Shown here piece by piece: positions 2,903 through 54,894 of a DNA stretch of 64,000 bases. Positions within the stretch are counted from its first letter, which is position 1. Every line of letters begins with the position of its first letter. The translations under genes and the position numbers were made by a program. Under the pieces are notes generated by a model. It searched no databases. It had not been told where the DNA came from and saw only the letters and a program-made list of their open reading frames with translations. The DNA is from Phapecoctavirus DIJ07P2: the sequence record OZ035771.1; one strand, 5' to 3'.

Positions 2903-3175
2903 ATGGCATCATATAGCGCAACAATGATCGTAGCTGGTACCACTGGTAAACCTATGAGCGGTGGCGGATCTTTCGCTAATATTAATATTGATGGGCGTTT
3001 ATCCCTGGACGCAGCGATCACCGTGGCGCGGGAAACATTTAAGAAAGAATGTGATTTCAACAAGCAAGATTATTTAGGTTTTGCTATTGAAAAAACGGCG
3101 CGTTTTGTTGATTATAAAAGTCCGAAAATGGTTGATACTACACTAAAAGCGCAAGATGTAGCCTTTTTGCTTTAA
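2903..3175 (+). CDS. hypothetical small protein (90 aa)
   Basis: ATG 2903 after conserved ACAACAGAAGAGAGAAATCATC leader; track ORF 2846..3175 trimmed. Confidence 0.6.
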   Translation: MASYSATMIVAGTTGKPMSGGGSFANINIDGRLSLDAAITVARETFKKECDFNKQDYLGFAIEKTARFVDYKSPKMVDTTLKAQDVAFLL

Positions 3176-3178
3176 GGC

Positions 3179-3233
3179 TTGACATTAACGAATAATTTGT
3201 TAATATGTTACATAAAGCGGGAACTATTCCCGC
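3179..3233 (+). promoter_or_regulatory. early promoter / 5' hairpin cassette 3
   Basis: -35 TTGACA 3179, -10 TAATAT 3201, stem GCGGGA/TCCCGC 3217-3233. Confidence 0.55.
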
Positions 3234-3251
3234 TATTTGTAAGGTGGTAGA

Positions 3252-3509
3252 ATGTTTTACATCAAATTAAAAGGTCACGTGATCGCGTTCAAGGATAACG
3301 CTTTTTACAGATTAGCAAAATATGCGTTAATACATCCCCATTATGTTTATATAAGGGGGCGTGATGAAATAAATATCTTTGATCAAACAACATGCGAGAA
3401 CATCGAGATCCGCAAGGTTGGCGTACGTGACTATCGTACATCTTTCTACCCTTGCAAGGATTCAGCAAGTCTTTTTAAAGTATGCCAATTGTTGAAAAAA
3501 GGTGGTTAA
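3252..3509 (+). CDS. hypothetical protein (85 aa)
   Basis: track ORF; GGTGG RBS. Confidence 0.6.
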   Translation: MFYIKLKGHVIAFKDNAFYRLAKYALIHPHYVYIRGRDEINIFDQTTCENIEIRKVGVRDYRTSFYPCKDSASLFKVCQLLKKGG

Positions 3510-22965: not shown

Positions 22966-23766
22966 TTATTTGTTTAAATGGTCTTCAACCATTTTGATAA
23001 AGCCTTCATCACTGAAGACTGTTCCTGCTTTCTCTCGGTAGACAAGCACTCCACGTTCTTCGTAGAGAGTTTGTTCTACAAAATTCAAACCTGGGTTAAC
23101 TACAACCATCTTAACCCCAATATTCAGGGCAGGGAAGAGTTCCCAGTTGAAGTTGATTACTTGGTTAGAGCAGCCTACAACGATAACCATATCTTGTGAT
23201 GTTAGTTGATCCAGTTTGTGATACATGTCTGTGTAGAGCGGTGCATTCTCACCAAAAAACACCACATTAGGCTTCACATATTTGTAATCGTCTACATCAA
23301 TAGCTGCGTAACCCACATCTTTGATAATTTTGTTATCAACAACAACTTCTGGCAAGAAACCATGAACGTGCAATATTTCTTCTCTATCGATTCCAGCGCG
23401 TTCTAATAGATCGTCAACGTTAGTAGTGATGTTAATAATCCTTTCTGCACCGTATTTTTCGAACCATTCTCCAATCTGAAGATGTGCTGGATTCGGGTCA
23501 ACTTTCTCTAATTCCACGCGACGTTTATTGTAGAAGTCGTGAGTTTTACGGTAGAGGTTATATCCTTCCACATCTAAGCCACCCATAGCATCAGGAATAC
23601 CCTGTTCTTGCTGATAACCGGCACGGAAGTTGAAAATGTCACAAACCTCAGAAAGATCATAAGAAGACCATAACGCCTCCCCTGAAGAAGTATCTGTTCT
23701 AAAAGCTGGGATACCGCTATCCACAGATAGTCCTGCGCCAGTTATGAATATGACTCTACGCGGCAT
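22966..23766 (-). CDS. Sir2-family protein (no zinc ribbon)
   Basis: GAGLSVDSGIPAFR, TTNVDDL, HG, VVFFGE motifs; no CxxC...CxxC module. Confidence 0.7.
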   Translation of the reverse strand: MPRRVIFITGAGLSVDSGIPAFRTDTSSGEALWSSYDLSEVCDIFNFRAGYQQEQGIPDAMGGLDVEGYNLYRKTHDFYNKRRVELEKVDPNPAHLQIGEWFEKYGAERIINITTNVDDLLERAGIDREEILHVHGFLPEVVVDNKIIKDVGYAAIDVDDYKYVKPNVVFFGENAPLYTDMYHKLDQLTSQDMVIVVGCSNQVINFNWELFPALNIGVKMVVVNPGLNFVEQTLYEERGVLVYREKAGTVFSDEGFIKMVEDHLNK

Positions 23767-24496
23767 AAATCTCCTCCTTATATTTTTCGCAAATGCTTTT
23801 ATTTGCAGGTTTATATTTTTCTTTCATCACCTTCAATCTTAGCTTCTCCAGAGCTATAGCACATCTCTCTGGATCGTTGAAACCATATTTGCAATACGTG
23901 GTCTTGTCAAACACAAACTTGAAAAAGAATGTTCTCTCTCTTGTTGCCACAAACACACAACTTAATCCTGAAGTGTTATCTATACGCTTCTTTTCTTTTT
24001 TGATATAAGATCCTTTCAAAATTTCTTGTTTTGCTAAAGCTCTAGCTACAATAGCTTCCTCTTTAGTTTTGAAACCTGAAACAGAGAAAGTTTCTTGGTT
24101 GTAGTTTATAACCCAAAGAAAAACACCATCCTTTTCATAAATACCTTCTAACCCATCCACATGTCTATTATTATTATTTAATAAATAGTTACTATCTAAT
24201 AAATTACTTTCCGCATTATTAAGTTTATTGCCGTCGTCATGGTCTATAACATCTGGACAGTAATTATGGTACATTTTAAAACAAACTCTGTGCTCCAAGT
24301 ATACAATACCATCTATTTTGACATGAGAGTAACCAACTTTATCAATAGTCCCTGCAATCTTCCCTGCGTATCTGCTATTCCACCTTTTGTTCTCTTTTGT
24401 TGTAGAAGGTTTAGGTTTCCAAACAAGACGACCATTCTCCACACTAAACCTTGATAACAAGTAATCTCTATCTGGTAAGGGTTTTCGTTCTATCAT
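23756..24496 (-). CDS. HNH homing endonuclease with AP2-like DNA-binding domain
   Basis: YLEHRVCFKMYHNYCPDVIDHDDGNKLNNAESNL HNH motif; GFKTKEEAIVARA AP2-like segment. Confidence 0.75.
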   Translation of the reverse strand: MIERKPLPDRDYLLSRFSVENGRLVWKPKPSTTKENKRWNSRYAGKIAGTIDKVGYSHVKIDGIVYLEHRVCFKMYHNYCPDVIDHDDGNKLNNAESNLLDSNYLLNNNNRHVDGLEGIYEKDGVFLWVINYNQETFSVSGFKTKEEAIVARALAKQEILKGSYIKKEKKRIDNTSGLSCVFVATRERTFFFKFVFDKTTYCKYGFNDPERCAIALEKLRLKVMKEKYKPANKSICEKYKEEIYAA

Positions 24497-24981
24497 TCAC
24501 CCTCGTCCTCCTCAAATGGATCATAAGAATCATATTCGTAAGTATCATCTTCTGAAAATTCTACTTCAAAGTAAATATCAAACTCTGCAAACAAACGTAG
24601 AATGTTGGACATGCTGTAATAGTTATCATAAGCTTCCTCTGCTTCATAGTAGAGGCGTAGCAAACGTTCAGCTTCTTCATCTTCTACCCATTTATGATCG
24701 ACATAGACAGAAGCAGCGTAGGTATTGTAGGCTTGTTCCCGAATATCGACAAGATTTCGGCTCAACAGTTCAGGGAAGTCCTTATAATTTACATTCAGTC
24801 TTCCGCATAACCACAAAGCAATATCATGCCAATCTGCATCCATACCACTAAAGCAACTTGCTTCTTCTCCAAAAGAAGCTTCTCCTAAATCACCACTAAT
24901 ACGAACAACATTAGATGAATTATAGCCACACGTTTCACAATCAGAGTAACTATTATGCACATTGATATTTACTTGAAACAT
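24493..24981 (-). CDS. highly acidic hypothetical protein (162 aa)
   Basis: Asp/Glu-rich throughout, C-terminus DDTYEYDSYDPFEEDEGE. Confidence 0.5.
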   Translation of the reverse strand: MFQVNINVHNSYSDCETCGYNSSNVVRISGDLGEASFGEEASCFSGMDADWHDIALWLCGRLNVNYKDFPELLSRNLVDIREQAYNTYAASVYVDHKWVEDEEAERLLRLYYEAEEAYDNYYSMSNILRLFAEFDIYFEVEFSEDDTYEYDSYDPFEEDEGE

Positions 24982-25039
24982 ATTCCCTCCTATAAAAGAA
25001 AAGCCCCCTGAAACAGGAGGCTTTGTTCAGATGTTGGCA

Positions 25040-25690
25040 CTATACCAGACTTTGTAGGTATTTGTCAAGGGCTTCTTGATCACCTTGGCAAACATAGCAA
25101 CGAAAGTCTTTAACAGATGGTACTTTATTCTCATCCCAGTCCCACATTATATTACCTTTGTAACGTGAACTAGGGAAGTCGAAAAATGCTGTATGGGTGA
25201 TGTGGTGTGGACCGCCCCAAACCTCTGTAAAGGTGAACTGCGGATACGCTACCTTCACCGCCTCCATAAACCAAGCTTTACGAATCAAAGCATTGTTGAT
25301 AAAATGCGCGTGACGTTCCATTTCTTCCCAGTTCTTCCACACACTTTTCTCGTCAAGGGAGAATACAAGATCCTCTTCAATATACAAGCCATCTTCGCAT
25401 TCATCAAAATCTGCCTCAAGACCTCCTACAGGTTCGTCGAGTCTAACACCATCAAAAGCAGAATATACCCACCAACCATCTTCCAGTAAGGCTTTGATAG
25501 GGACGAAGCCTTTATCAGCATATTGATCGAATTGTTTGACACGGTGGCTTGTGCAGTCTTCAAACTCACATTCTAAACGATATGCACCTTTTCGACGAGC
25601 CTCAAGACCGTGTGTACTGAAAATAACAACACTTCCTTCACCATCATTACGATCTACTTGATAAGCAACCACTGGTTTTGAATTTGACAT
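25040..25690 (-). CDS. hypothetical protein (216 aa) abutting MTase-like gene
   Basis: track ORF; start overlaps stop of 25690..26373. Confidence 0.5.
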   Translation of the reverse strand: MSNSKPVVAYQVDRNDGEGSVVIFSTHGLEARRKGAYRLECEFEDCTSHRVKQFDQYADKGFVPIKALLEDGWWVYSAFDGVRLDEPVGGLEADFDECEDGLYIEEDLVFSLDEKSVWKNWEEMERHAHFINNALIRKAWFMEAVKVAYPQFTFTEVWGGPHHITHTAFFDFPSSRYKGNIMWDWDENKVPSVKDFRCYVCQGDQEALDKYLQSLV

Positions 25691-26373
25691 TATTTCTCCT
25701 TATCTAGAAGATTGTTAGACAAAAACACTGCACGAGCAAAACCACGTGCGGTTAGTGATCTAAGTTGTTTTGTTTTTGCACTAGCTCCACCTAAGCTTTT
25801 CCAACCCCAGAAGCAGCCTATATGATCTACTGGTTTCTTCACTGGTTGAACAAAACCATTGCCGTGCCAAATACAAGTTTTCTTTGTATACCCATCACGG
25901 GTAGGCATTTTAGGATGAAAGCTTCCTTCCTCTTCAAACAAATACCCACCATACTCATAAGGATCAAAGTAAAAATCTGGTTTACGCCATAAGGTTGAAA
26001 GTTTACCTACTGGGTTCTCAATCATCCAAGGAACATTATATTTGTTACCCAAAGCTTCCACTACACGAATATTAGCTAAAGCTTCATCTAATTCCTCTGT
26101 GCTACGTTCGTGTTTGCTACCACTACCTGCTAACATAGTGCAAGGTGGAAATCCAAAAATAATATCGGGTTTAGGTATTCCATGATCTTCAGGGTTGAAT
26201 GTAGAATCTATCCAAGCATTCACATAGGTTATGTTTGGGTGCTCCATCCTAACCTCGTATTTACCGTGATCCCCTTCATCAGCGTTTACACAAAAACACT
26301 TGTGACCTGCTTCGGCATAACGTAACACCATGATCCCAGATCCGTCAAACATAGACAAAACTGTTTTACTCAT
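25690..26373 (-). CDS. compact C5-cytosine methyltransferase-like protein
   Basis: motif I-like LSMFDGSG, motif IV-like FGFPPC, motif VI-like ENPVG; track ORF trimmed to ATG 26373. Confidence 0.45.
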   Translation of the reverse strand: MSKTVLSMFDGSGIMVLRYAEAGHKCFCVNADEGDHGKYEVRMEHPNITYVNAWIDSTFNPEDHGIPKPDIIFGFPPCTMLAGSGSKHERSTEELDEALANIRVVEALGNKYNVPWMIENPVGKLSTLWRKPDFYFDPYEYGGYLFEEEGSFHPKMPTRDGYTKKTCIWHGNGFVQPVKKPVDHIGCFWGWKSLGGASAKTKQLRSLTARGFARAVFLSNNLLDKEK

Positions 26374-26764
26374 TACCCCTCCATTCAAGACAAGCCATAA
26401 CTTTACGCCAATCACTTTCTGTTAGGAAGATCTGTTCTGAACTGATCCACAAATCTAAATCTTCTACATCTGGAAGGCGGTAGCGTAACTCCAAGAGATC
26501 ATGTTCTTCAGGAGAAATGTATCCCAAATGTTCTGCCATATCGTGGAACCAAGCCCAACCGTGCATATTTTTAACTACATGCTCTCGTTGCGTCATGACT
26601 TTACGTTTCAGTCCAAACCAAGAAGTGATTACCACTTTACTCTCTCGGAGACGTTTGTCAATAGCCACTGTTTCTTTTTCGATACTCAACAACTTCACTC
26701 TTGCTTTGTTGAGATCCGCATGTGTTACTTTGAAGTAACTTTGTGACTGATCACACCAACCCAT
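26366..26764 (-). CDS. hypothetical protein (132 aa)
   Basis: track ORF. Confidence 0.45.
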   Translation of the reverse strand: MGWCDQSQSYFKVTHADLNKARVKLLSIEKETVAIDKRLRESKVVITSWFGLKRKVMTQREHVVKNMHGWAWFHDMAEHLGYISPEEHDLLELRYRLPDVEDLDLWISSEQIFLTESDWRKVMACLEWRGNE

Positions 26765-26765
26765 A

Positions 26766-27437
26766 TCAATAACCTCCTTCGTAAGGTTTCACCTTAGCCC
26801 TATCATAATATAACATCTCTGCCTCCTTCCGTTTACGAATAGCTTCTTCTTTACTGTTACCATAGTATAAACTAATATGCTCTCCATTGACTCGGATGTA
26901 TGCAATCCATTTGCCCCTATCTTTTCTGTATTTTACCCCACAAATACCGGATAGATTATCTTTCCTTAGTTTTTGATCATAAGATTGCATTGCGAGTGAA
27001 GCCCACTCACAGGTTTCTTTGCTATAAACATCAGCAGAATTAATTCTGTTTAAGGTTGTGTTTTGTGGTCTACTACCCATATCCTCAACGAAATTCAAAA
27101 AACCTAAGTCCCCCTTCTCTAACCATCTACAGCATACAGAAACTCCACTACCTCCATACTTAGGATAATTCGGTGAGTTCTCATTGGTGCACCTGTCTAT
27201 CATGGCATTGTAGGAATTATATGTATATCTATCCTCAATGAACTTGTAATGGTAACGCTCACAACCACAAGATTTAGTTTTACCAGATTTTAATCTTTCG
27301 GCTGTAGTAACAAACTTCTCACCGCAATGACAAATACAATTCCATTTTGTAGATCGTCCAGTCTCCTTAATTGCTACATCAAGAACTGTTATACCATTGA
27401 ATACCATTCCAGACAGGTTTTCTAATTTCCTCCCCAT
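26766..27437 (-). CDS. homing-endonuclease-like protein with AP2 domains
   Basis: Cys cluster WNCICHCG..KSCGC, VSVCCRW segment, GVKYRKDRGKWIAYIRVNGEHISLYYGNSKEEA AP2 module; start trimmed to ATG 27437. Confidence 0.55.
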   Translation of the reverse strand: MGRKLENLSGMVFNGITVLDVAIKETGRSTKWNCICHCGEKFVTTAERLKSGKTKSCGCERYHYKFIEDRYTYNSYNAMIDRCTNENSPNYPKYGGSGVSVCCRWLEKGDLGFLNFVEDMGSRPQNTTLNRINSADVYSKETCEWASLAMQSYDQKLRKDNLSGICGVKYRKDRGKWIAYIRVNGEHISLYYGNSKEEAIRKRKEAEMLYYDRAKVKPYEGGY

Positions 27438-27438
27438 A

Positions 27439-28374
27439 CTATTCCTCAAAAGGTTTAAGTAAGTGTTTATTAGCGTGGAATCTTTTGATGTAATCATCTT
27501 CTCCCATACTTTCATAAAGCTTCATCACGACATGGAAGGATTCATAGGCATATTCACGAAACCAACCACTAGTGATAGATGTGCAAACTTTAGATAAAGC
27601 CATCATAAAACTTTGCTTAGGTGTTGGACCTCCGATCTCTTCACCGAAAGGAATTTGTGAACGTTCCAAAGCCAAAACACACGCTTCTTCATAAACACCT
27701 AACAGGCGCACATGTTTTGGTTGAGCAAAAAACTTTTCTTTGCTGGTCATAACTTCACTTCCATCTTTCATATAAGATTTATATGCTGGAGCATCCATTA
27801 CCGCGATTGCTTCATGGATAGAATCATGATCATAAACATACGGAACCTCATCACCTTTAAAGAAGTCTTTACTTTTTACGTTTAAGTTCGGATGAGAGTA
27901 AGTGTATGTTTCTTTCTCACGCAACTCATAAATACTCTTAAGATTTTCTGGGATCTTTGCGCCCAGTGACCGCATGAAATGAATATCTTTCATAGTTTTA
28001 AAGAAGTGAGGACTATCCTTTTTAAAACGATGACTCATTTTAAGAAGGTAGAGCACATCTAAAGGAGCAACAACATGTCCAGCGTAAGTTCGACGAACAT
28101 CATCAGAATCTTCACAATAACTAATCAAAGCTTCTGTGCTATCTCCTTGAGAAGCAATATCGTATTCCAAATGTGCACCAGCTATCATTTTGACGTGGCC
28201 TTTGTTCCCTTTACGTTCTACAAGTTCAACAAACTCGTCTTGAGAGAACATTTTTGATAATTCTTCCCACTCTTGTTCTGTACAGAGATAATCTAAATCT
28301 ACACAAGGGCGATACAAGTCTTTTCCCATGTCCATAGCATGAATTTGTAATGCACGGCTACCAATTAACACCAT
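27439..28374 (-). CDS. hypothetical protein with possible nucleotidyltransferase-like motif
   Basis: N-terminal LIGSRAL...VDLDY resembles hG[GS]...DxD of Pol-beta-type NTases but spacing is atypical. Confidence 0.4.
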   Translation of the reverse strand: MVLIGSRALQIHAMDMGKDLYRPCVDLDYLCTEQEWEELSKMFSQDEFVELVERKGNKGHVKMIAGAHLEYDIASQGDSTEALISYCEDSDDVRRTYAGHVVAPLDVLYLLKMSHRFKKDSPHFFKTMKDIHFMRSLGAKIPENLKSIYELREKETYTYSHPNLNVKSKDFFKGDEVPYVYDHDSIHEAIAVMDAPAYKSYMKDGSEVMTSKEKFFAQPKHVRLLGVYEEACVLALERSQIPFGEEIGGPTPKQSFMMALSKVCTSITSGWFREYAYESFHVVMKLYESMGEDDYIKRFHANKHLLKPFEE

Positions 28375-34432: not shown

Positions 34433-35125
34433 TTAAATAGCGGTTCCTTCGAAATCCGCCACATTTACGAGATTAATATTTTCAGATTTAGAAGTCAAGT
34501 TGTTTTCTGCAACAGATTTTTCTTCAGTATCCGCCTCGTTACCTGCCACGTTACGAGGTTCTTCTTCACCGTAGGGATTACCGAATTTCAAAAGATTGAT
34601 TAATTCTTCTTTGGAGAAGTTTTCTAAATCATCGTCTGTTAATTCAATAATCTCGTCTTGTTCTTCAATAAATGTTTCACCACCAGAAAAAGCATCTCGC
34701 TTTTTAGCTACTTCCATAGCTTGTTCTGGTGTTGCCCCTGCATCAAGAGCAGCTAAAGCAAAGTCTGACCCACTTCCTACTGCATAATATTCTTCATCAA
34801 TCGGATATGCACGTGTTGGATTGTTACCTTCGTGCAGGAAAATACGTCCGTCTGGATGAACAACAAGCGCAATAAACTCTTCATCTTCTTTATCTGGATC
34901 AGAATGAATCATCAAACCAGGGACAGCATCACGTGCTGCTTCGCACTGTAGGTTTTGTTCAAACCATTGAAAGAAAGAAAGCACGGAGGTCAGACGACCA
35001 GCACCACCTACAAGGTAATCTCCAATTTTTCGGACCTTTTTGAAATTAATAGAATCTACACGTCCGCCAAAAGTTACCTTACCATCACTCAAAATCTTAT
35101 TCTTGGTTGCAATAATTGTCGTCAC
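34433..35125 (-). CDS. HslV-like (proteasome beta-type) peptidase with long acidic C-terminal tail
   Basis: N-terminus MTTIIATKN (Thr right after Met), GGAG and GSGSDFALAA motifs; ~70-aa Glu/Asp-rich extension. Confidence 0.65.
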   Translation of the reverse strand: MTTIIATKNKILSDGKVTFGGRVDSINFKKVRKIGDYLVGGAGRLTSVLSFFQWFEQNLQCEAARDAVPGLMIHSDPDKEDEEFIALVVHPDGRIFLHEGNNPTRAYPIDEEYYAVGSGSDFALAALDAGATPEQAMEVAKKRDAFSGGETFIEEQDEIIELTDDDLENFSKEELINLLKFGNPYGEEEPRNVAGNEADTEEKSVAENNLTSKSENINLVNVADFEGTAI

Positions 35126-54567: not shown

Positions 54568-54894
54568 TTAAGCATTCAGTTCGTTGTTGAGTTCGTAAAT
54601 CTCTTCTTGAAGAGAATCGATCTCTTCCTCCAAACGGGAGATCTCTTCTTTTAGATATACCATTTCAGATTCTTTCTCTTCTAACTCATTTTCAAATTTT
54701 ACTTTATTCGCCTCATTTTCATAATGGAGTTCAGCGTAATCATCGCGCATTTGTTCAATAAGATGAATCAGAGACAAGATGTAATTATCTCCCGTTTCAT
54801 CACGCCACTCTTCACCGTGGCGGAGAACGGTAATTCGTCCAGTATCTTCATCTAAAATTGTCTCATATTTACGATCATCTGTATAAATCTGCAT
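54568..54894 (-). CDS. coiled-coil protein (108 aa)
   Basis: heptad-like EELEEKESEMVYLKEEISRLEEEIDSLQEEIYEL. Confidence 0.45.
   Translation of the reverse strand: MQIYTDDRKYETILDEDTGRITVLRHGEEWRDETGDNYILSLIHLIEQMRDDYAELHYENEANKVKFENELEEKESEMVYLKEEISRLEEEIDSLQEEIYELNNELNA

What the first reader, a model, noticed from the sequence alone, without database searches (positions are those of the whole stretch)
24493..24981. Strongly acidic 162-aa protein as a DNA-mimic candidate
Asp/Glu-rich along its length with C-terminus DDTYEYDSYDPFEEDEGE, encoded next to a homing endonuclease and a methyltransferase-like gene. Phage DNA-mimic anti-restriction proteins are similarly small and very acidic. Composition is the only evidence.
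Basis: inference. Interest (0 to 1): 0.4.

Follow-up and report, generated by a model that had tools for sequence, protein, structure and literature searches.

The report
Conserved acidic phage protein, function unknown
This is a real, conserved, extremely acidic small protein of phAPEC8-like and jumbo phages with a fold unlike any solved structure; it may act as a charge decoy for a nucleic-acid-binding protein, but nothing ties it to restriction enzymes and relatives carrying it are restriction-sensitive.

Summary
The ORF is real: 24493..24981 on the minus strand, 162 aa, 38 D/E against 9 K/R, net charge -29, with the C-terminus as quoted. The window is a Phapecoctavirus (phAPEC8-like coliphage).

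The protein belongs to PHROG 9509 (function unknown; phAPEC8 gp196, phi92 gp039, GAP32_166). This is a small, phage-only family: 32 clusters among 1.84 billion proteins.

AlphaFold2 gives a confident model (pLDDT 88). It shows a long beta-hairpin with an invariant CxxC at its tip, a third invariant Cys, four helices, and a disordered acidic-aromatic tail.

Extreme negative charge (core about -0.14 per residue) and the tail motif persist down to about 25% identity, so the charge is selected.

The context arguments fail:
- The HNH gene is a recent insertion into the acidic-gene/Sir2 junction.
- Jumbo-phage homologs have no methyltransferase, Sir2 or HNH neighbours.
- Another equally acidic ORF in the window is an HslV-like peptidase.
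- BASEL data show that phi92-like phages, which carry an ortholog, are highly RM-sensitive.

Verdict: a plausible charge-decoy protein with an unknown target. Ocr-like anti-restriction is unlikely.

The parts
24493..24981 (-). CDS of the acidic protein (162 aa plus stop codon); member of PHROG 9509; ortholog of phAPEC8 gp196, nepoznato gp195 and phi92 gp039
24535..24981 (-). Folded core, residues 1-149: beta-hairpin (2-15, 19-30), short strands, helices 51-64, 76-92, 102-121 and 124-132, strand 136-144; net charge -22
   Evidence: AlphaFold2 model, pLDDT 88.4, pTM 0.78; charge
24928..24939 (-). Codons for C15-E16-T17-C18: the invariant CExC(G) knuckle at the tip of the beta-hairpin; candidate metal site
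   Evidence: invariant in alignments of 10, 23 and 43 members; position in model
24853..24855 (-). Codon for C43, the third invariant cysteine, in the motif G38-x-x-A41-x-C43-[FY]44
24496..24534 (-). Disordered acidic-aromatic C-terminal tail, residues 150-162 (YDSYDPFEEDEGE), net -7; family-wide motif of an aromatic residue flanked by D/E at the extreme C-terminus; its GAGGAGG codons also provide the Shine-Dalgarno sequence for the next gene
   Evidence: pLDDT below 50; column statistics: position 156 is 80% aromatic, and positions 155 and 157-159 are 62-82% acidic; junction sequences
24986..24991 (-). Ribosome-binding site AGGAGG, 4 nt upstream of the ATG
25000..25024 (-). 11-bp G+C-rich stem-loop followed by a T-run (terminator-like), between the upstream phrog_8514 gene and the acidic gene; identical in 5 Phapecoctavirus genomes
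25039..25068 (-). Sigma-70 promoter-like site TTGACA-18-TATAGT with extended -10 TG (11 of 12), overlapping the stop codon of the upstream gene; function not shown
   Evidence: the region's promoter-like count does not exceed shuffled sequence
23756..24496 (-). Context, not part of the unit: HNH homing-endonuclease gene inserted exactly into the acidic-gene/Sir2 junction (ATGA overlap with the acidic gene's stop); it replaces the ancestral overlap with the Sir2 start
   Evidence: absent from phAPEC8, ESCO5 and nieznany
22966..23766 (-). Context: Sir2-family gene. In HNH-free relatives it overlaps, or directly abuts, the 3' end of the acidic gene and is translationally coupled to it

Best explanation
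The gene encodes a dispensable accessory protein of an uncharacterised, phage-restricted family (PHROG 9509).

Anatomy: a compact alpha/beta domain has a long beta-hairpin that presents an invariant Cys-x-x-Cys knuckle. With a third invariant Cys this is probably a structural metal site. The domain is packed against four helices and is followed by a disordered C-terminal tail of Asp/Glu with an embedded aromatic residue.

Proposed mechanism: it acts stoichiometrically as an electrostatic decoy. Its polyanionic surface, and above all its acidic-aromatic tail, occupy the basic nucleic-acid-binding surface of a target protein and keep that protein off DNA or RNA. The target would be a host DNA/RNA-binding or defence protein, or less likely a phage protein. 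The identity of the target is unknown. It is probably not a classical type I-III restriction enzyme.

Shown here: the gene, the family, the predicted fold, the invariant cysteines, conservation of charge and tail motif, the lack of any homolog of known function, and dispensability.

Inferred: metal binding, decoy action, and the class of target.
For: Real conserved gene: phrog_9509 E = 4e-61; about 135 phage records; 32 clusters at 50% identity in an exhaustive search of 1.84 billion proteins.

Confident fold with a disordered tail: pLDDT 88.4, pTM 0.78, residues 150-162 below 50. The same fold is predicted independently for relatives in BFVD (TM 0.6-0.9).

Charge is selected, not drift. In 43 members the core averages -0.139 +/- 0.030 net charge per residue, against -0.033 +/- 0.055 for the window's proteome. 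Tails carry -1 to -17. Only a few acidic positions in the core are fixed, so the bulk polyanionic character is what is kept.

The tail has a conserved short motif: aromatic at position 156 in 80% of weighted sequences, flanked by 62-82% acidic positions.

C15, E16, C18, G19, G38, A41 and C43 are invariant or nearly so.

Accessory character: phage EP57 has lost most of the gene together with Sir2. The gene sits in a block of small genes of mostly unknown function. It has no plasmid homologs.

Size and total charge match bona fide mimics: Ocr has 116 aa with 34 acidic and 6 basic residues (PMC4872106 abstract).

From established knowledge (not tested here): acidic tails carrying an aromatic residue compete with ssDNA for the DNA-binding cleft in T7 gp2.5 and in bacterial SSB.
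Against: There is no direct evidence of any binding partner.

No similarity to any solved mimic.

High acidity is not specific in this genome. An HslV-like peptidase homolog (34433..34912) has net -28 over 159 aa.

The tail motif puts the aromatic residue before the terminal acidic run. In SSB and gp2.5 the aromatic residue is the last one, so the analogy is loose.

Carriers of an ortholog show no protection from RM, so the most common target class of phage mimics seems excluded.

No gene neighbour is conserved across the whole family to hint at a target.
Confidence: 0.35

Rival explanations
1. One reading: an Ocr/ArdA-like double-stranded-DNA mimic that binds type I (or other) restriction-modification enzymes, or BREX, and so protects incoming phage DNA.
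For: Size and net charge are like Ocr and ArdA (Ocr numbers from the PMC4872106 abstract). In Stephanstirmvirinae the gene lies two genes from a Dcm-like DNA methyltransferase. Mimics have diverse folds, so the lack of a fold match is not decisive.

Against: BASEL reports phi92-like phages and other relatives as 'exceptionally susceptible' to RM systems of types I, II and III, 'lacking any effective protection' (PMC8594841). phi92-like phages, including JohannJBalmer from the BASEL GenBank accession series, carry the ortholog.

The methyltransferase linkage is absent in jumbo-phage members, and the HNH adjacency is a recent insertion. There are no plasmid or conjugative-element homologs, unlike ArdA.
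Confidence: 0.08
2. A partner of the phage Sir2 enzyme (regulator, inhibitor until needed, or adaptor that brings basic substrates to it), made in fixed ratio with Sir2 through translational coupling.
For: In HNH-free Stephanstirmvirinae the acidic gene's last codons overlap the Sir2 start: GAGGAGGAAGAATGCCAAGACGATTAA reads EECQDD* in one frame and MPRR in the other. Its GAGGAGG tail codons serve as the Sir2 Shine-Dalgarno sequence. The order acidic gene then Sir2 holds in phAPEC8, ESCO5, nieznany, phi92 and FKP3. EP57 lost both genes in one deletion. Kaldavass, a jumbo phage with a family member, also encodes a Sir2.
Against: Sir2 homologs occur in 970 phage records, against about 135 with the acidic protein. 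In rV5-like Murica and T5-like DaisyDussoix the gene upstream of Sir2 is not acidic (net -2 and -3). In Kaldavass the two genes are about 36 kb apart. Two independent HNH insertions between the genes are tolerated. Overlapping starts are common in tightly packed phage operons and do not prove interaction.
Confidence: 0.12
3. A metal-binding or redox protein (zinc, iron or an iron-sulfur site at the three invariant cysteines, with carboxylates buffering cations) whose acidity serves metal handling rather than mimicry.
For: C15, C18 and C43 are invariant, E16 is an invariant acidic position, and D48 is 77% acidic. In all six jumbo-phage contexts the gene lies directly downstream of a DUF5856 protein. 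The profile of that protein hits Dps and Dlp mini-ferritins in the PDB at E = 6e-4 to 3e-3. From general knowledge, this recalls ferritin-associated small Cys proteins such as Bfd.
Against: Only three ligands are conserved and no fourth was identified. H9 is about 69% conserved and lies mid-strand, far from the hairpin tip. There is no hit to any metal-binding Pfam family. The Dps-like neighbour is absent in Stephanstirmvirinae, and it is unrelated to the upstream gene there (hhalign probability 0.2%). A single structural zinc site does not explain a selected net charge of -16 to -43 or the tail motif.
Confidence: 0.1
4. An acidic chaperone or buffer for the phage's own basic proteins (DNA-binding or packaged proteins), acting in replication or assembly rather than against the host.
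For: Polyanionic proteins commonly chaperone basic partners (general knowledge). In jumbo phages the constant neighbour is a Dps-like, putatively DNA-binding protein. The family occurs only in large virulent phages with complex proteomes.
Against: The gene lies far from structural modules, in blocks of small accessory genes. It is dispensable in EP57. No partner gene is conserved across the family.
Confidence: 0.1

Closest known systems
PHROG 9509 / pVOG VOG6318 hypothetical proteins (phAPEC8 gp196, nepoznato gp195, phi92 gp039, GAP32_166, and relatives in RaK2, Serratia BF and Erwinia pEa_SNUABM jumbo phages)
   Same: True homologs. phrog_9509 hits at E = 4e-61 for the window protein and 4e-55 for GAP32_166. 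Shared features are the CxxCG...C core, the predicted fold (BFVD TM 0.6-0.9), the extreme acidity and the acidic-aromatic tail.
   Different: The window copy, like nepoznato's, ends ...EEDEGE instead of ...EECQDD, because an HNH gene replaced the overlap with Sir2. No member has a known function.
T7 Ocr (gp0.3), a dsDNA mimic that inhibits type I RM, BREX and others
   Same: A small phage protein with almost the same total charge: Ocr has 34 acidic and 6 basic residues in 116 aa, and this protein has 38 and 9 in 162 aa. Both have an acidic C-terminal end.
ArdA anti-restriction proteins of conjugative plasmids and transposons
   Same: Similar length and strongly negative charge (ArdA values from my own knowledge of McMahon et al. 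2009, not re-measured here).
   Different: No sequence hit, no fold hit, and no homolog in 72,556 plasmid records. This family is confined to large virulent phages.
Acidic C-terminal tails of ssDNA-binding proteins (T7 gp2.5, E. coli SSB) and other nucleic-acid-mimicking tails (Hfq, HMGB1), from established knowledge
   Same: A disordered Asp/Glu-rich C-terminal tail with a conserved aromatic residue. In those proteins such tails occupy nucleic-acid-binding clefts or partner pockets.
   Different: Here the aromatic residue is followed by 2-5 acidic residues rather than being the last residue. The tail is attached to an unrelated Cys-knuckle domain, not an OB fold. No binding has been shown.

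Membership tests
PHROG 9509 (uncharacterised phage family) | Significant full-length match to the family profile | tested here: met
   E = 4.2e-61, residues 1-160 on profile positions 1-156 of 158
Ocr family (T7 gp0.3; Pfam Ocr) | Sequence homology to Ocr | tested here: not met
   No Pfam family at E <= 0.1 for the protein or any of 23 members; hhalign family profile against T7 Ocr gives probability 1.5%
Ocr family (T7 gp0.3; Pfam Ocr) | Ocr fold (helical monomer forming an elongated dimer shaped like bent B-DNA) | tested here: not met
Ocr family (T7 gp0.3; Pfam Ocr) | Inhibits type I RM in vivo | not testable with these tools
   Indirect evidence only: phi92-like carriers of an ortholog are reported as highly RM-sensitive (PMC8594841)
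ArdA family (Pfam ArdA) | Sequence or fold homology to ArdA | tested here: not met
ArdA family (Pfam ArdA) | Encoded on conjugative plasmids or transposons (leading regions) | tested here: not met
   tblastn against 72,556 plasmid records: no match
DNA-mimic proteins (functional class) | High density of acidic residues, low pI, small size | tested here: met
   23.5% D+E, net -29, pI about 4.05, 162 aa; conserved family-wide
DNA-mimic proteins (functional class) | Surface carboxylates arranged like the phosphate backbone of DNA | not testable with these tools
   Structure prediction returned only summary data, and coordinates were not exposed to scripts
DNA-mimic proteins (functional class) | Binds the DNA-binding site of a defined target protein and competes with DNA | not testable with these tools
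   Needs biochemistry or co-folding. No conserved neighbour suggests a target.
Zinc-knuckle / zinc-ribbon-like metal site | Four conserved metal ligands, typically two CxxC or CxxC-like knuckles on beta-hairpin tips | tested here: inconclusive
   One invariant CxxC at a hairpin tip plus one more invariant Cys. No conserved fourth Cys or His was found. The C-terminal Cys of 'EECQDD' is an artefact of overlap with the Sir2 start and is absent here. No zinc-ribbon Pfam hit.
Atd1 (anti-TIR protein reported in Phapecoctavirus and Justusliebigvirus) | MazG-like nucleotide pyrophosphatase | tested here: not met
   Atd1 is a MazG-like (p)ppGpp pyrophosphatase (bioRxiv 10.1101/2022.06.09.495361). This protein has no MazG Pfam hit.

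The most novel reading that the evidence does not exclude
PHROG 9509 is a new structural class of phage nucleic-acid mimic. A Cys-knuckle alpha/beta domain carries a polyanionic surface and an ssDNA-like acidic-aromatic tail that plugs the nucleic-acid-binding site of a non-RM host factor. Candidate targets include RecBCD, a nucleoid protein such as H-NS or HU, a helicase-nuclease defence effector, or a PUA-type sensor. The family is shared between rV5/phi92-like myoviruses and GAP32/RaK2-type jumbo phages.
Probability: 0.25. Interest if true: 0.6.

Novelty: new variant of a known kind. Interest (0 to 1): 0.3.

Why it matters
Small polyanionic decoy proteins are among the broadest-acting phage counter-defences. 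Each newly solved one has revealed a new fold and often new targets.

This family is conserved across two very different groups of large virulent enterobacterial phages, including phi92/phAPEC8-like phages used in therapy cocktails. Its fold has no solved counterpart, and its charge is clearly under selection.

If it is a decoy, finding its target would explain one of the many unknown accessory genes of these phages and could uncover a host factor or defence system that they must neutralise.

If it is not a decoy, it is simply one more hypothetical protein. The present evidence does not go beyond 'plausible candidate'.

Tried and rejected
(1) Paralogy with the other equally acidic ORF, 34433..34912. 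BLASTP gives E = 1.7, and that ORF is an HslV-family peptidase homolog. Rejected.

(2) Homology to known families. Pfam, NCBIfam, PADLOC and PDB sequence searches with the single sequence and the profile all found nothing.

(4) The conserved C-terminal Cys in 'EECQDD' as a fourth zinc ligand. Rejected: it is a by-product of the overlap with the Sir2 start codon and is absent from this copy and from jumbo-phage members.

(5) A conserved two-gene module with the upstream neighbour. phrog_8514 (Stephanstirmvirinae) and DUF5856 (jumbo phages) are unrelated (hhalign probability 0.2%), despite a borderline pairwise BLAST E of 0.003.

(6) Obligate Sir2 partnership. Sir2 is about 7 times more widespread than this family, has non-acidic upstream genes in rV5-like and T5-like phages, and is unlinked in Kaldavass.

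(7) Identity with Atd1, the anti-defence gene reported for these genera. Atd1 is a MazG-like enzyme.

(8) Literature search for phi92 gp039, for phAPEC8 anti-restriction, and for DNA mimics in these phages. Nothing on this family.

(9) The 900-aa hit P0032 in the exhaustive search is a repeat protein that matches only the short Cys/Gly segment. I treated it as spurious.

(10) The annotation 'putative aminoacyl-tRNA synthetase' on the phi92-type ortholog in JohannJBalmer and BME3 has no support from any search.
Full report
OBSERVATION.

It lies at 24493..24981 on the minus strand, starts with ATG, encodes 162 aa, and ends ...DDTYEYDSYDPFEEDEGE. An AGGAGG ribosome-binding site sits 4 nt upstream of the start.

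The protein has 16 Asp and 22 Glu against 2 Lys and 7 Arg, giving net -29, 23.5% acidic residues and a computed pI of about 4.05.

Compared with 83 non-overlapping ORFs of at least 80 aa in the window (mean -0.033 net charge per residue, sd 0.055), it lies at -0.179 per residue, z = -2.7. It is first by net charge and second by charge density.

The charge is uneven. The first 100 residues carry -9 and residues 101-162 carry -20. Split by structure, the folded core (1-149) carries -22 and the last 13 residues carry -7.

The HNH gene is indeed immediately downstream (23756..24496, minus strand). The methyltransferase (25690..26415) is two genes upstream, not adjacent.

WHAT GENOME AND WHAT FAMILY.

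The window is a Phapecoctavirus (phAPEC8-like coliphage, subfamily Stephanstirmvirinae). Its closest relative is Escherichia phage nepoznato, at 96% identity over this region.

The protein matches PHROG 9509, function unknown, at E = 4e-61. It has no hit in Pfam, NCBIfam, PADLOC or PDB sequences, whether searched alone, as a 23-sequence profile, or member by member.

Orthologs are phAPEC8 gp196, nepoznato gp195 and phi92 gp039. More distant members occur in Citrobacter phage Tr1, Klebsiella phage FKP3, and the jumbo phages GAP32, Kaldavass, pEa_SNUABM, Serratia BF and RaK2.

An exhaustive HMM search of 1.84 billion representative proteins found only 32 clusters at E <= 1e-3. There are no homologs in 72,556 plasmid records. 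This is a small family confined to large virulent phages.

ANATOMY.

AlphaFold2 on a 23-sequence alignment gives a confident model with mean pLDDT 88.4 and pTM 0.78. Its elements are:
- a long beta-hairpin (strands 2-15 and 19-30);
- short strands;
- four helices (51-64, 76-92, 102-121, 124-132);
- a final strand (136-144);
- a disordered tail (150-162, pLDDT below 50).

Invariant or nearly invariant positions in 43 full-length members are C15, E16, C18, G19, G38, A41, C43, F/Y44, L62, Y85, Y118, Y121, Y122 and D145.

The C15-x-x-C18-G motif lies at the tip of the hairpin, as in zinc knuckles. Together with C43 it makes a three-Cys candidate metal site. I could not identify a fourth ligand.

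The C-terminal Cys seen in most Phapecoctavirus copies ('EECQDD') is an artefact. Those codons overlap the start of the Sir2 gene in another frame: GAATGCCAAGACG reads MPRR.

Few acidic positions in the core are fixed, yet the core's charge density is held at -0.139 +/- 0.030 per residue across the family. Every full-length member also ends in an acidic tail.

Within the tail, one aromatic position (F156 here) is aromatic in 80% of weighted sequences. It is flanked by positions that are 62-82% acidic. I conclude that both the polyanionic character and the acidic-aromatic C-terminus are under selection.

COMPARISON WITH KNOWN MIMICS.

- Foldseek against 350,542 PDB chains gave no hit at E <= 1e-3, with TM below 0.3.
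- BFVD returned only uncharacterised members of the same family.
- hhalign of the family profile against T7 Ocr gave a probability of 1.5%.

The protein is therefore not a member of the Ocr or ArdA families. Mimics are structurally idiosyncratic, so this lowers 'it is an Ocr/ArdA' but does not exclude 'it works like a mimic'.

The critical test is the geometry of the surface carboxylates and the oligomeric state. I could not do it because model coordinates were not exposed.

CONTEXT.

(i) The HNH gene is a mobile insertion.
- phAPEC8, ESCO5, nieznany and most of the 78 related records lack it.
- In those phages the acidic gene's 3' end overlaps or abuts the Sir2 start, and its GAGGAGG tail codons serve as the Sir2 Shine-Dalgarno sequence.
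- In the window and in nepoznato the HNH gene sits exactly in this junction.
- In Klebsiella phage FKP3 an unrelated HNH gene (BLASTP E = 0.047) occupies the same slot. The junction is therefore a recurrent homing site, not a functional pairing.

(ii) The gene order methyltransferase, phrog_8514, acidic gene, Sir2 is conserved only within Stephanstirmvirinae.
- In six jumbo-phage contexts the neighbours are a DUF5856 protein, a phrog_5848 protein and thymidine kinase.
- The DUF5856 protein is Dps-like, with PDB hits at E = 6e-4 to 3e-3.
- DUF5856 and phrog_8514 are unrelated (hhalign probability 0.2%), so no two-gene module spans the family.

The Sir2 linkage is also lineage-specific. Sir2 homologs occur in 970 phage records, against about 135 for the acidic family. 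In Kaldavass Sir2 is about 36 kb from the acidic gene. In rV5-like Murica and T5-like DaisyDussoix the gene upstream of Sir2 is not acidic.

Phage EP57 has a deletion that removes most of the acidic gene together with Sir2. The pair is therefore dispensable for propagation.

A near-consensus extended -10 promoter-like site lies at 25068 to 25039. A strong stem-loop with a T-run follows at 25024 to 25000, just before the gene. Both are identical in five Phapecoctavirus genomes. The surrounding sequence is 97% identical anyway, and the number of promoter-like sites in the region does not exceed shuffled controls, so their function is not established.

EVIDENCE BEARING ON ANTI-RESTRICTION.

The BASEL study tested type IA (EcoKI), IB (EcoCFT_I), II (EcoRI, EcoRV) and III (EcoP1_I, EcoCFT_II) systems. 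[quoted passage not shown]

phi92-like phages carry an ortholog that is 97-100% identical to phi92 gp039 and about 35% identical to the window protein. One carrier is JohannJBalmer, whose accession lies in the BASEL GenBank series.

This argues against a broad Ocr-like function. There are caveats. No Phapecoctavirus was in that panel, the orthologs are diverged, and laboratory assays may miss specific targets.

Composition alone is also a weak predictor in this genome. The equally acidic ORF 34433..34912 (159 aa, net -28) is an HslV-family peptidase homolog.

Atd1, the anti-defence protein reported for these genera, is a MazG-like pyrophosphatase and is unrelated to this protein. I found no paper on this family.

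MOST LIKELY MECHANISM.

I commit, at about 0.35, to an electrostatic decoy. In this model a metal-stabilised Cys-knuckle domain carries a selected polyanionic surface and a disordered acidic-aromatic tail. These occupy the basic nucleic-acid-binding surface of a target protein, most likely a host DNA/RNA-binding or defence factor other than classical RM enzymes.

Shown here: the gene, the family, the predicted fold, the invariant cysteines, selection on charge and tail, dispensability, and the absence of any homolog of known function.

Inferred: metal binding, decoy action and the class of target.

The analogy of the tail to the ssDNA-competing acidic tails of T7 gp2.5 and SSB rests on established knowledge, not on a test here. 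It is imperfect, because the aromatic residue in this family is not C-terminal.

Rivals:
- Ocr/ArdA-like anti-restriction, about 0.08.
- Sir2 partner, about 0.12.
- Metal or redox protein, about 0.10.
- Chaperone for basic phage proteins, about 0.10.
The remaining probability is for functions I have not thought of.

NOVELTY AND VERDICT.

The family is already catalogued (PHROG 9509, VOG6318) but uncharacterised. It has no sequence or fold relative of known function. If it is a decoy, it would be a new structural variant of a well-known kind of phage protein.

A specialist would not be surprised to find an acidic hypothetical protein in a large phage. The value lies in a well-defined, conserved candidate with clear experiments to run. 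Interest: 0.3.

Noticed in passing
window 24493-24500 and 23756-23770; L002, L012, L013 junctions: In HNH-free relatives the acidic gene ends inside the Sir2 start: ...GAGGAGGAAGAATGCCAAGACGATTAA reads EECQDD* in one frame and MPRR in the other. The apparently conserved C-terminal 'ECQDD' is dictated by the overlapping gene, and the tail's Glu codons double as the Sir2 Shine-Dalgarno sequence. The HNH insertion in the window rebuilt both junctions: an ATGA overlap upstream, and its own AAGGAGG plus ATG for Sir2 downstream.
   Followed up: yes
window 23756-24496 (-) and L005:3980-4630: Two unrelated HNH endonuclease genes (BLASTP E = 0.047) occupy the same acidic-gene/Sir2 junction in different genera: this window and nepoznato, and Klebsiella phage FKP3. 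This suggests a recurrent homing site at the conserved Sir2 start.
   Followed up: partly
window 26766-27515 (-): A second HNH/AP2-type endonuclease gene (249 aa, phrog_374) lies between the gp193-like gene and the DUF7275/DUF7277 gene. phAPEC8 has no gene there, and nepoznato has only a 333-bp 'HNH endonuclease' CDS. The locus carries two independent mobile insertions.
   Followed up: partly
L014 (Escherichia phage vB_EcoM_EP57, OR544956) 2999-3295: This 130-kb Phapecoctavirus has a deletion that leaves only a 76-aa remnant of the acidic gene (about residues 59-134) and removes Sir2 entirely. It is a natural double knockout that could serve as a comparator.
   Followed up: partly
window 34433-34912 (-): A 159-aa ORF with almost identical charge (net -28, 24.5% acidic) is unrelated to the finding and matches phrog_1040 'peptidase HslV family' (E = 5e-40). 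An unusually acidic proteasome-like subunit homolog in a phage.
   Followed up: partly
window 54568-54894 (-): The most charge-dense ORF in the window (108 aa, 30.6% acidic, net -22). It matches phrog_18076 'hol-like chemotaxis' and gives weak coiled-coil/SMC-like hits in PADLOC and NCBIfam.
   Followed up: no
L006:3016-3456, L007:2996-3445, L008:5516-5956, L010:435-875: In jumbo phages the acidic gene always follows a DUF5856/phrog_858 protein annotated 'starvation-inducible transcriptional regulator'. Its profile hits Dps and Dlp mini-ferritins in the PDB (E = 6e-4 to 3e-3), so these phages appear to encode a Dps-like protein.
   Followed up: partly
window 25000-25068 (-): A TTGACA-18-TGgTATAGT promoter-like site overlaps the stop codon of the upstream gene. 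It is followed within about 15 nt by a strong terminator-like hairpin and then the ribosome-binding site of the acidic gene. Promoter before terminator is an odd order; the hairpin could be a 5' stabiliser or an attenuator. The region is identical in five Phapecoctavirus genomes.
   Followed up: partly
phage records MZ501084 (JohannJBalmer), PP239276 (BME3), PQ571307 (Shigella phage SF1-1): Orthologs of this protein are annotated 'putative aminoacyl-tRNA synthetase' (JohannJBalmer, BME3) and 'major head protein' (SF1-1). None of my searches supports either name.
   Followed up: partly
phage records MG065639, MG065645, MG065677, MG065689 ('Campylobacter phage A150, A145, A13b, A110a'): Records labelled as Campylobacter jejuni phages of about 141-146 kb carry copies about 97% identical to phi92 gp039 and a Sir2 typical of E. 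coli phages. They look like coliphage genomes with a mislabelled host.
   Followed up: no
L016:2579-3292 (Murica) and L010:1836-2339: NAD- and nucleotide-related genes recur near these loci. In rV5-like Murica a nucleotide pyrophosphohydrolase lies directly downstream of Sir2. In one jumbo-phage contig a NADAR-domain gene lies two genes downstream of the acidic gene.
   Followed up: no
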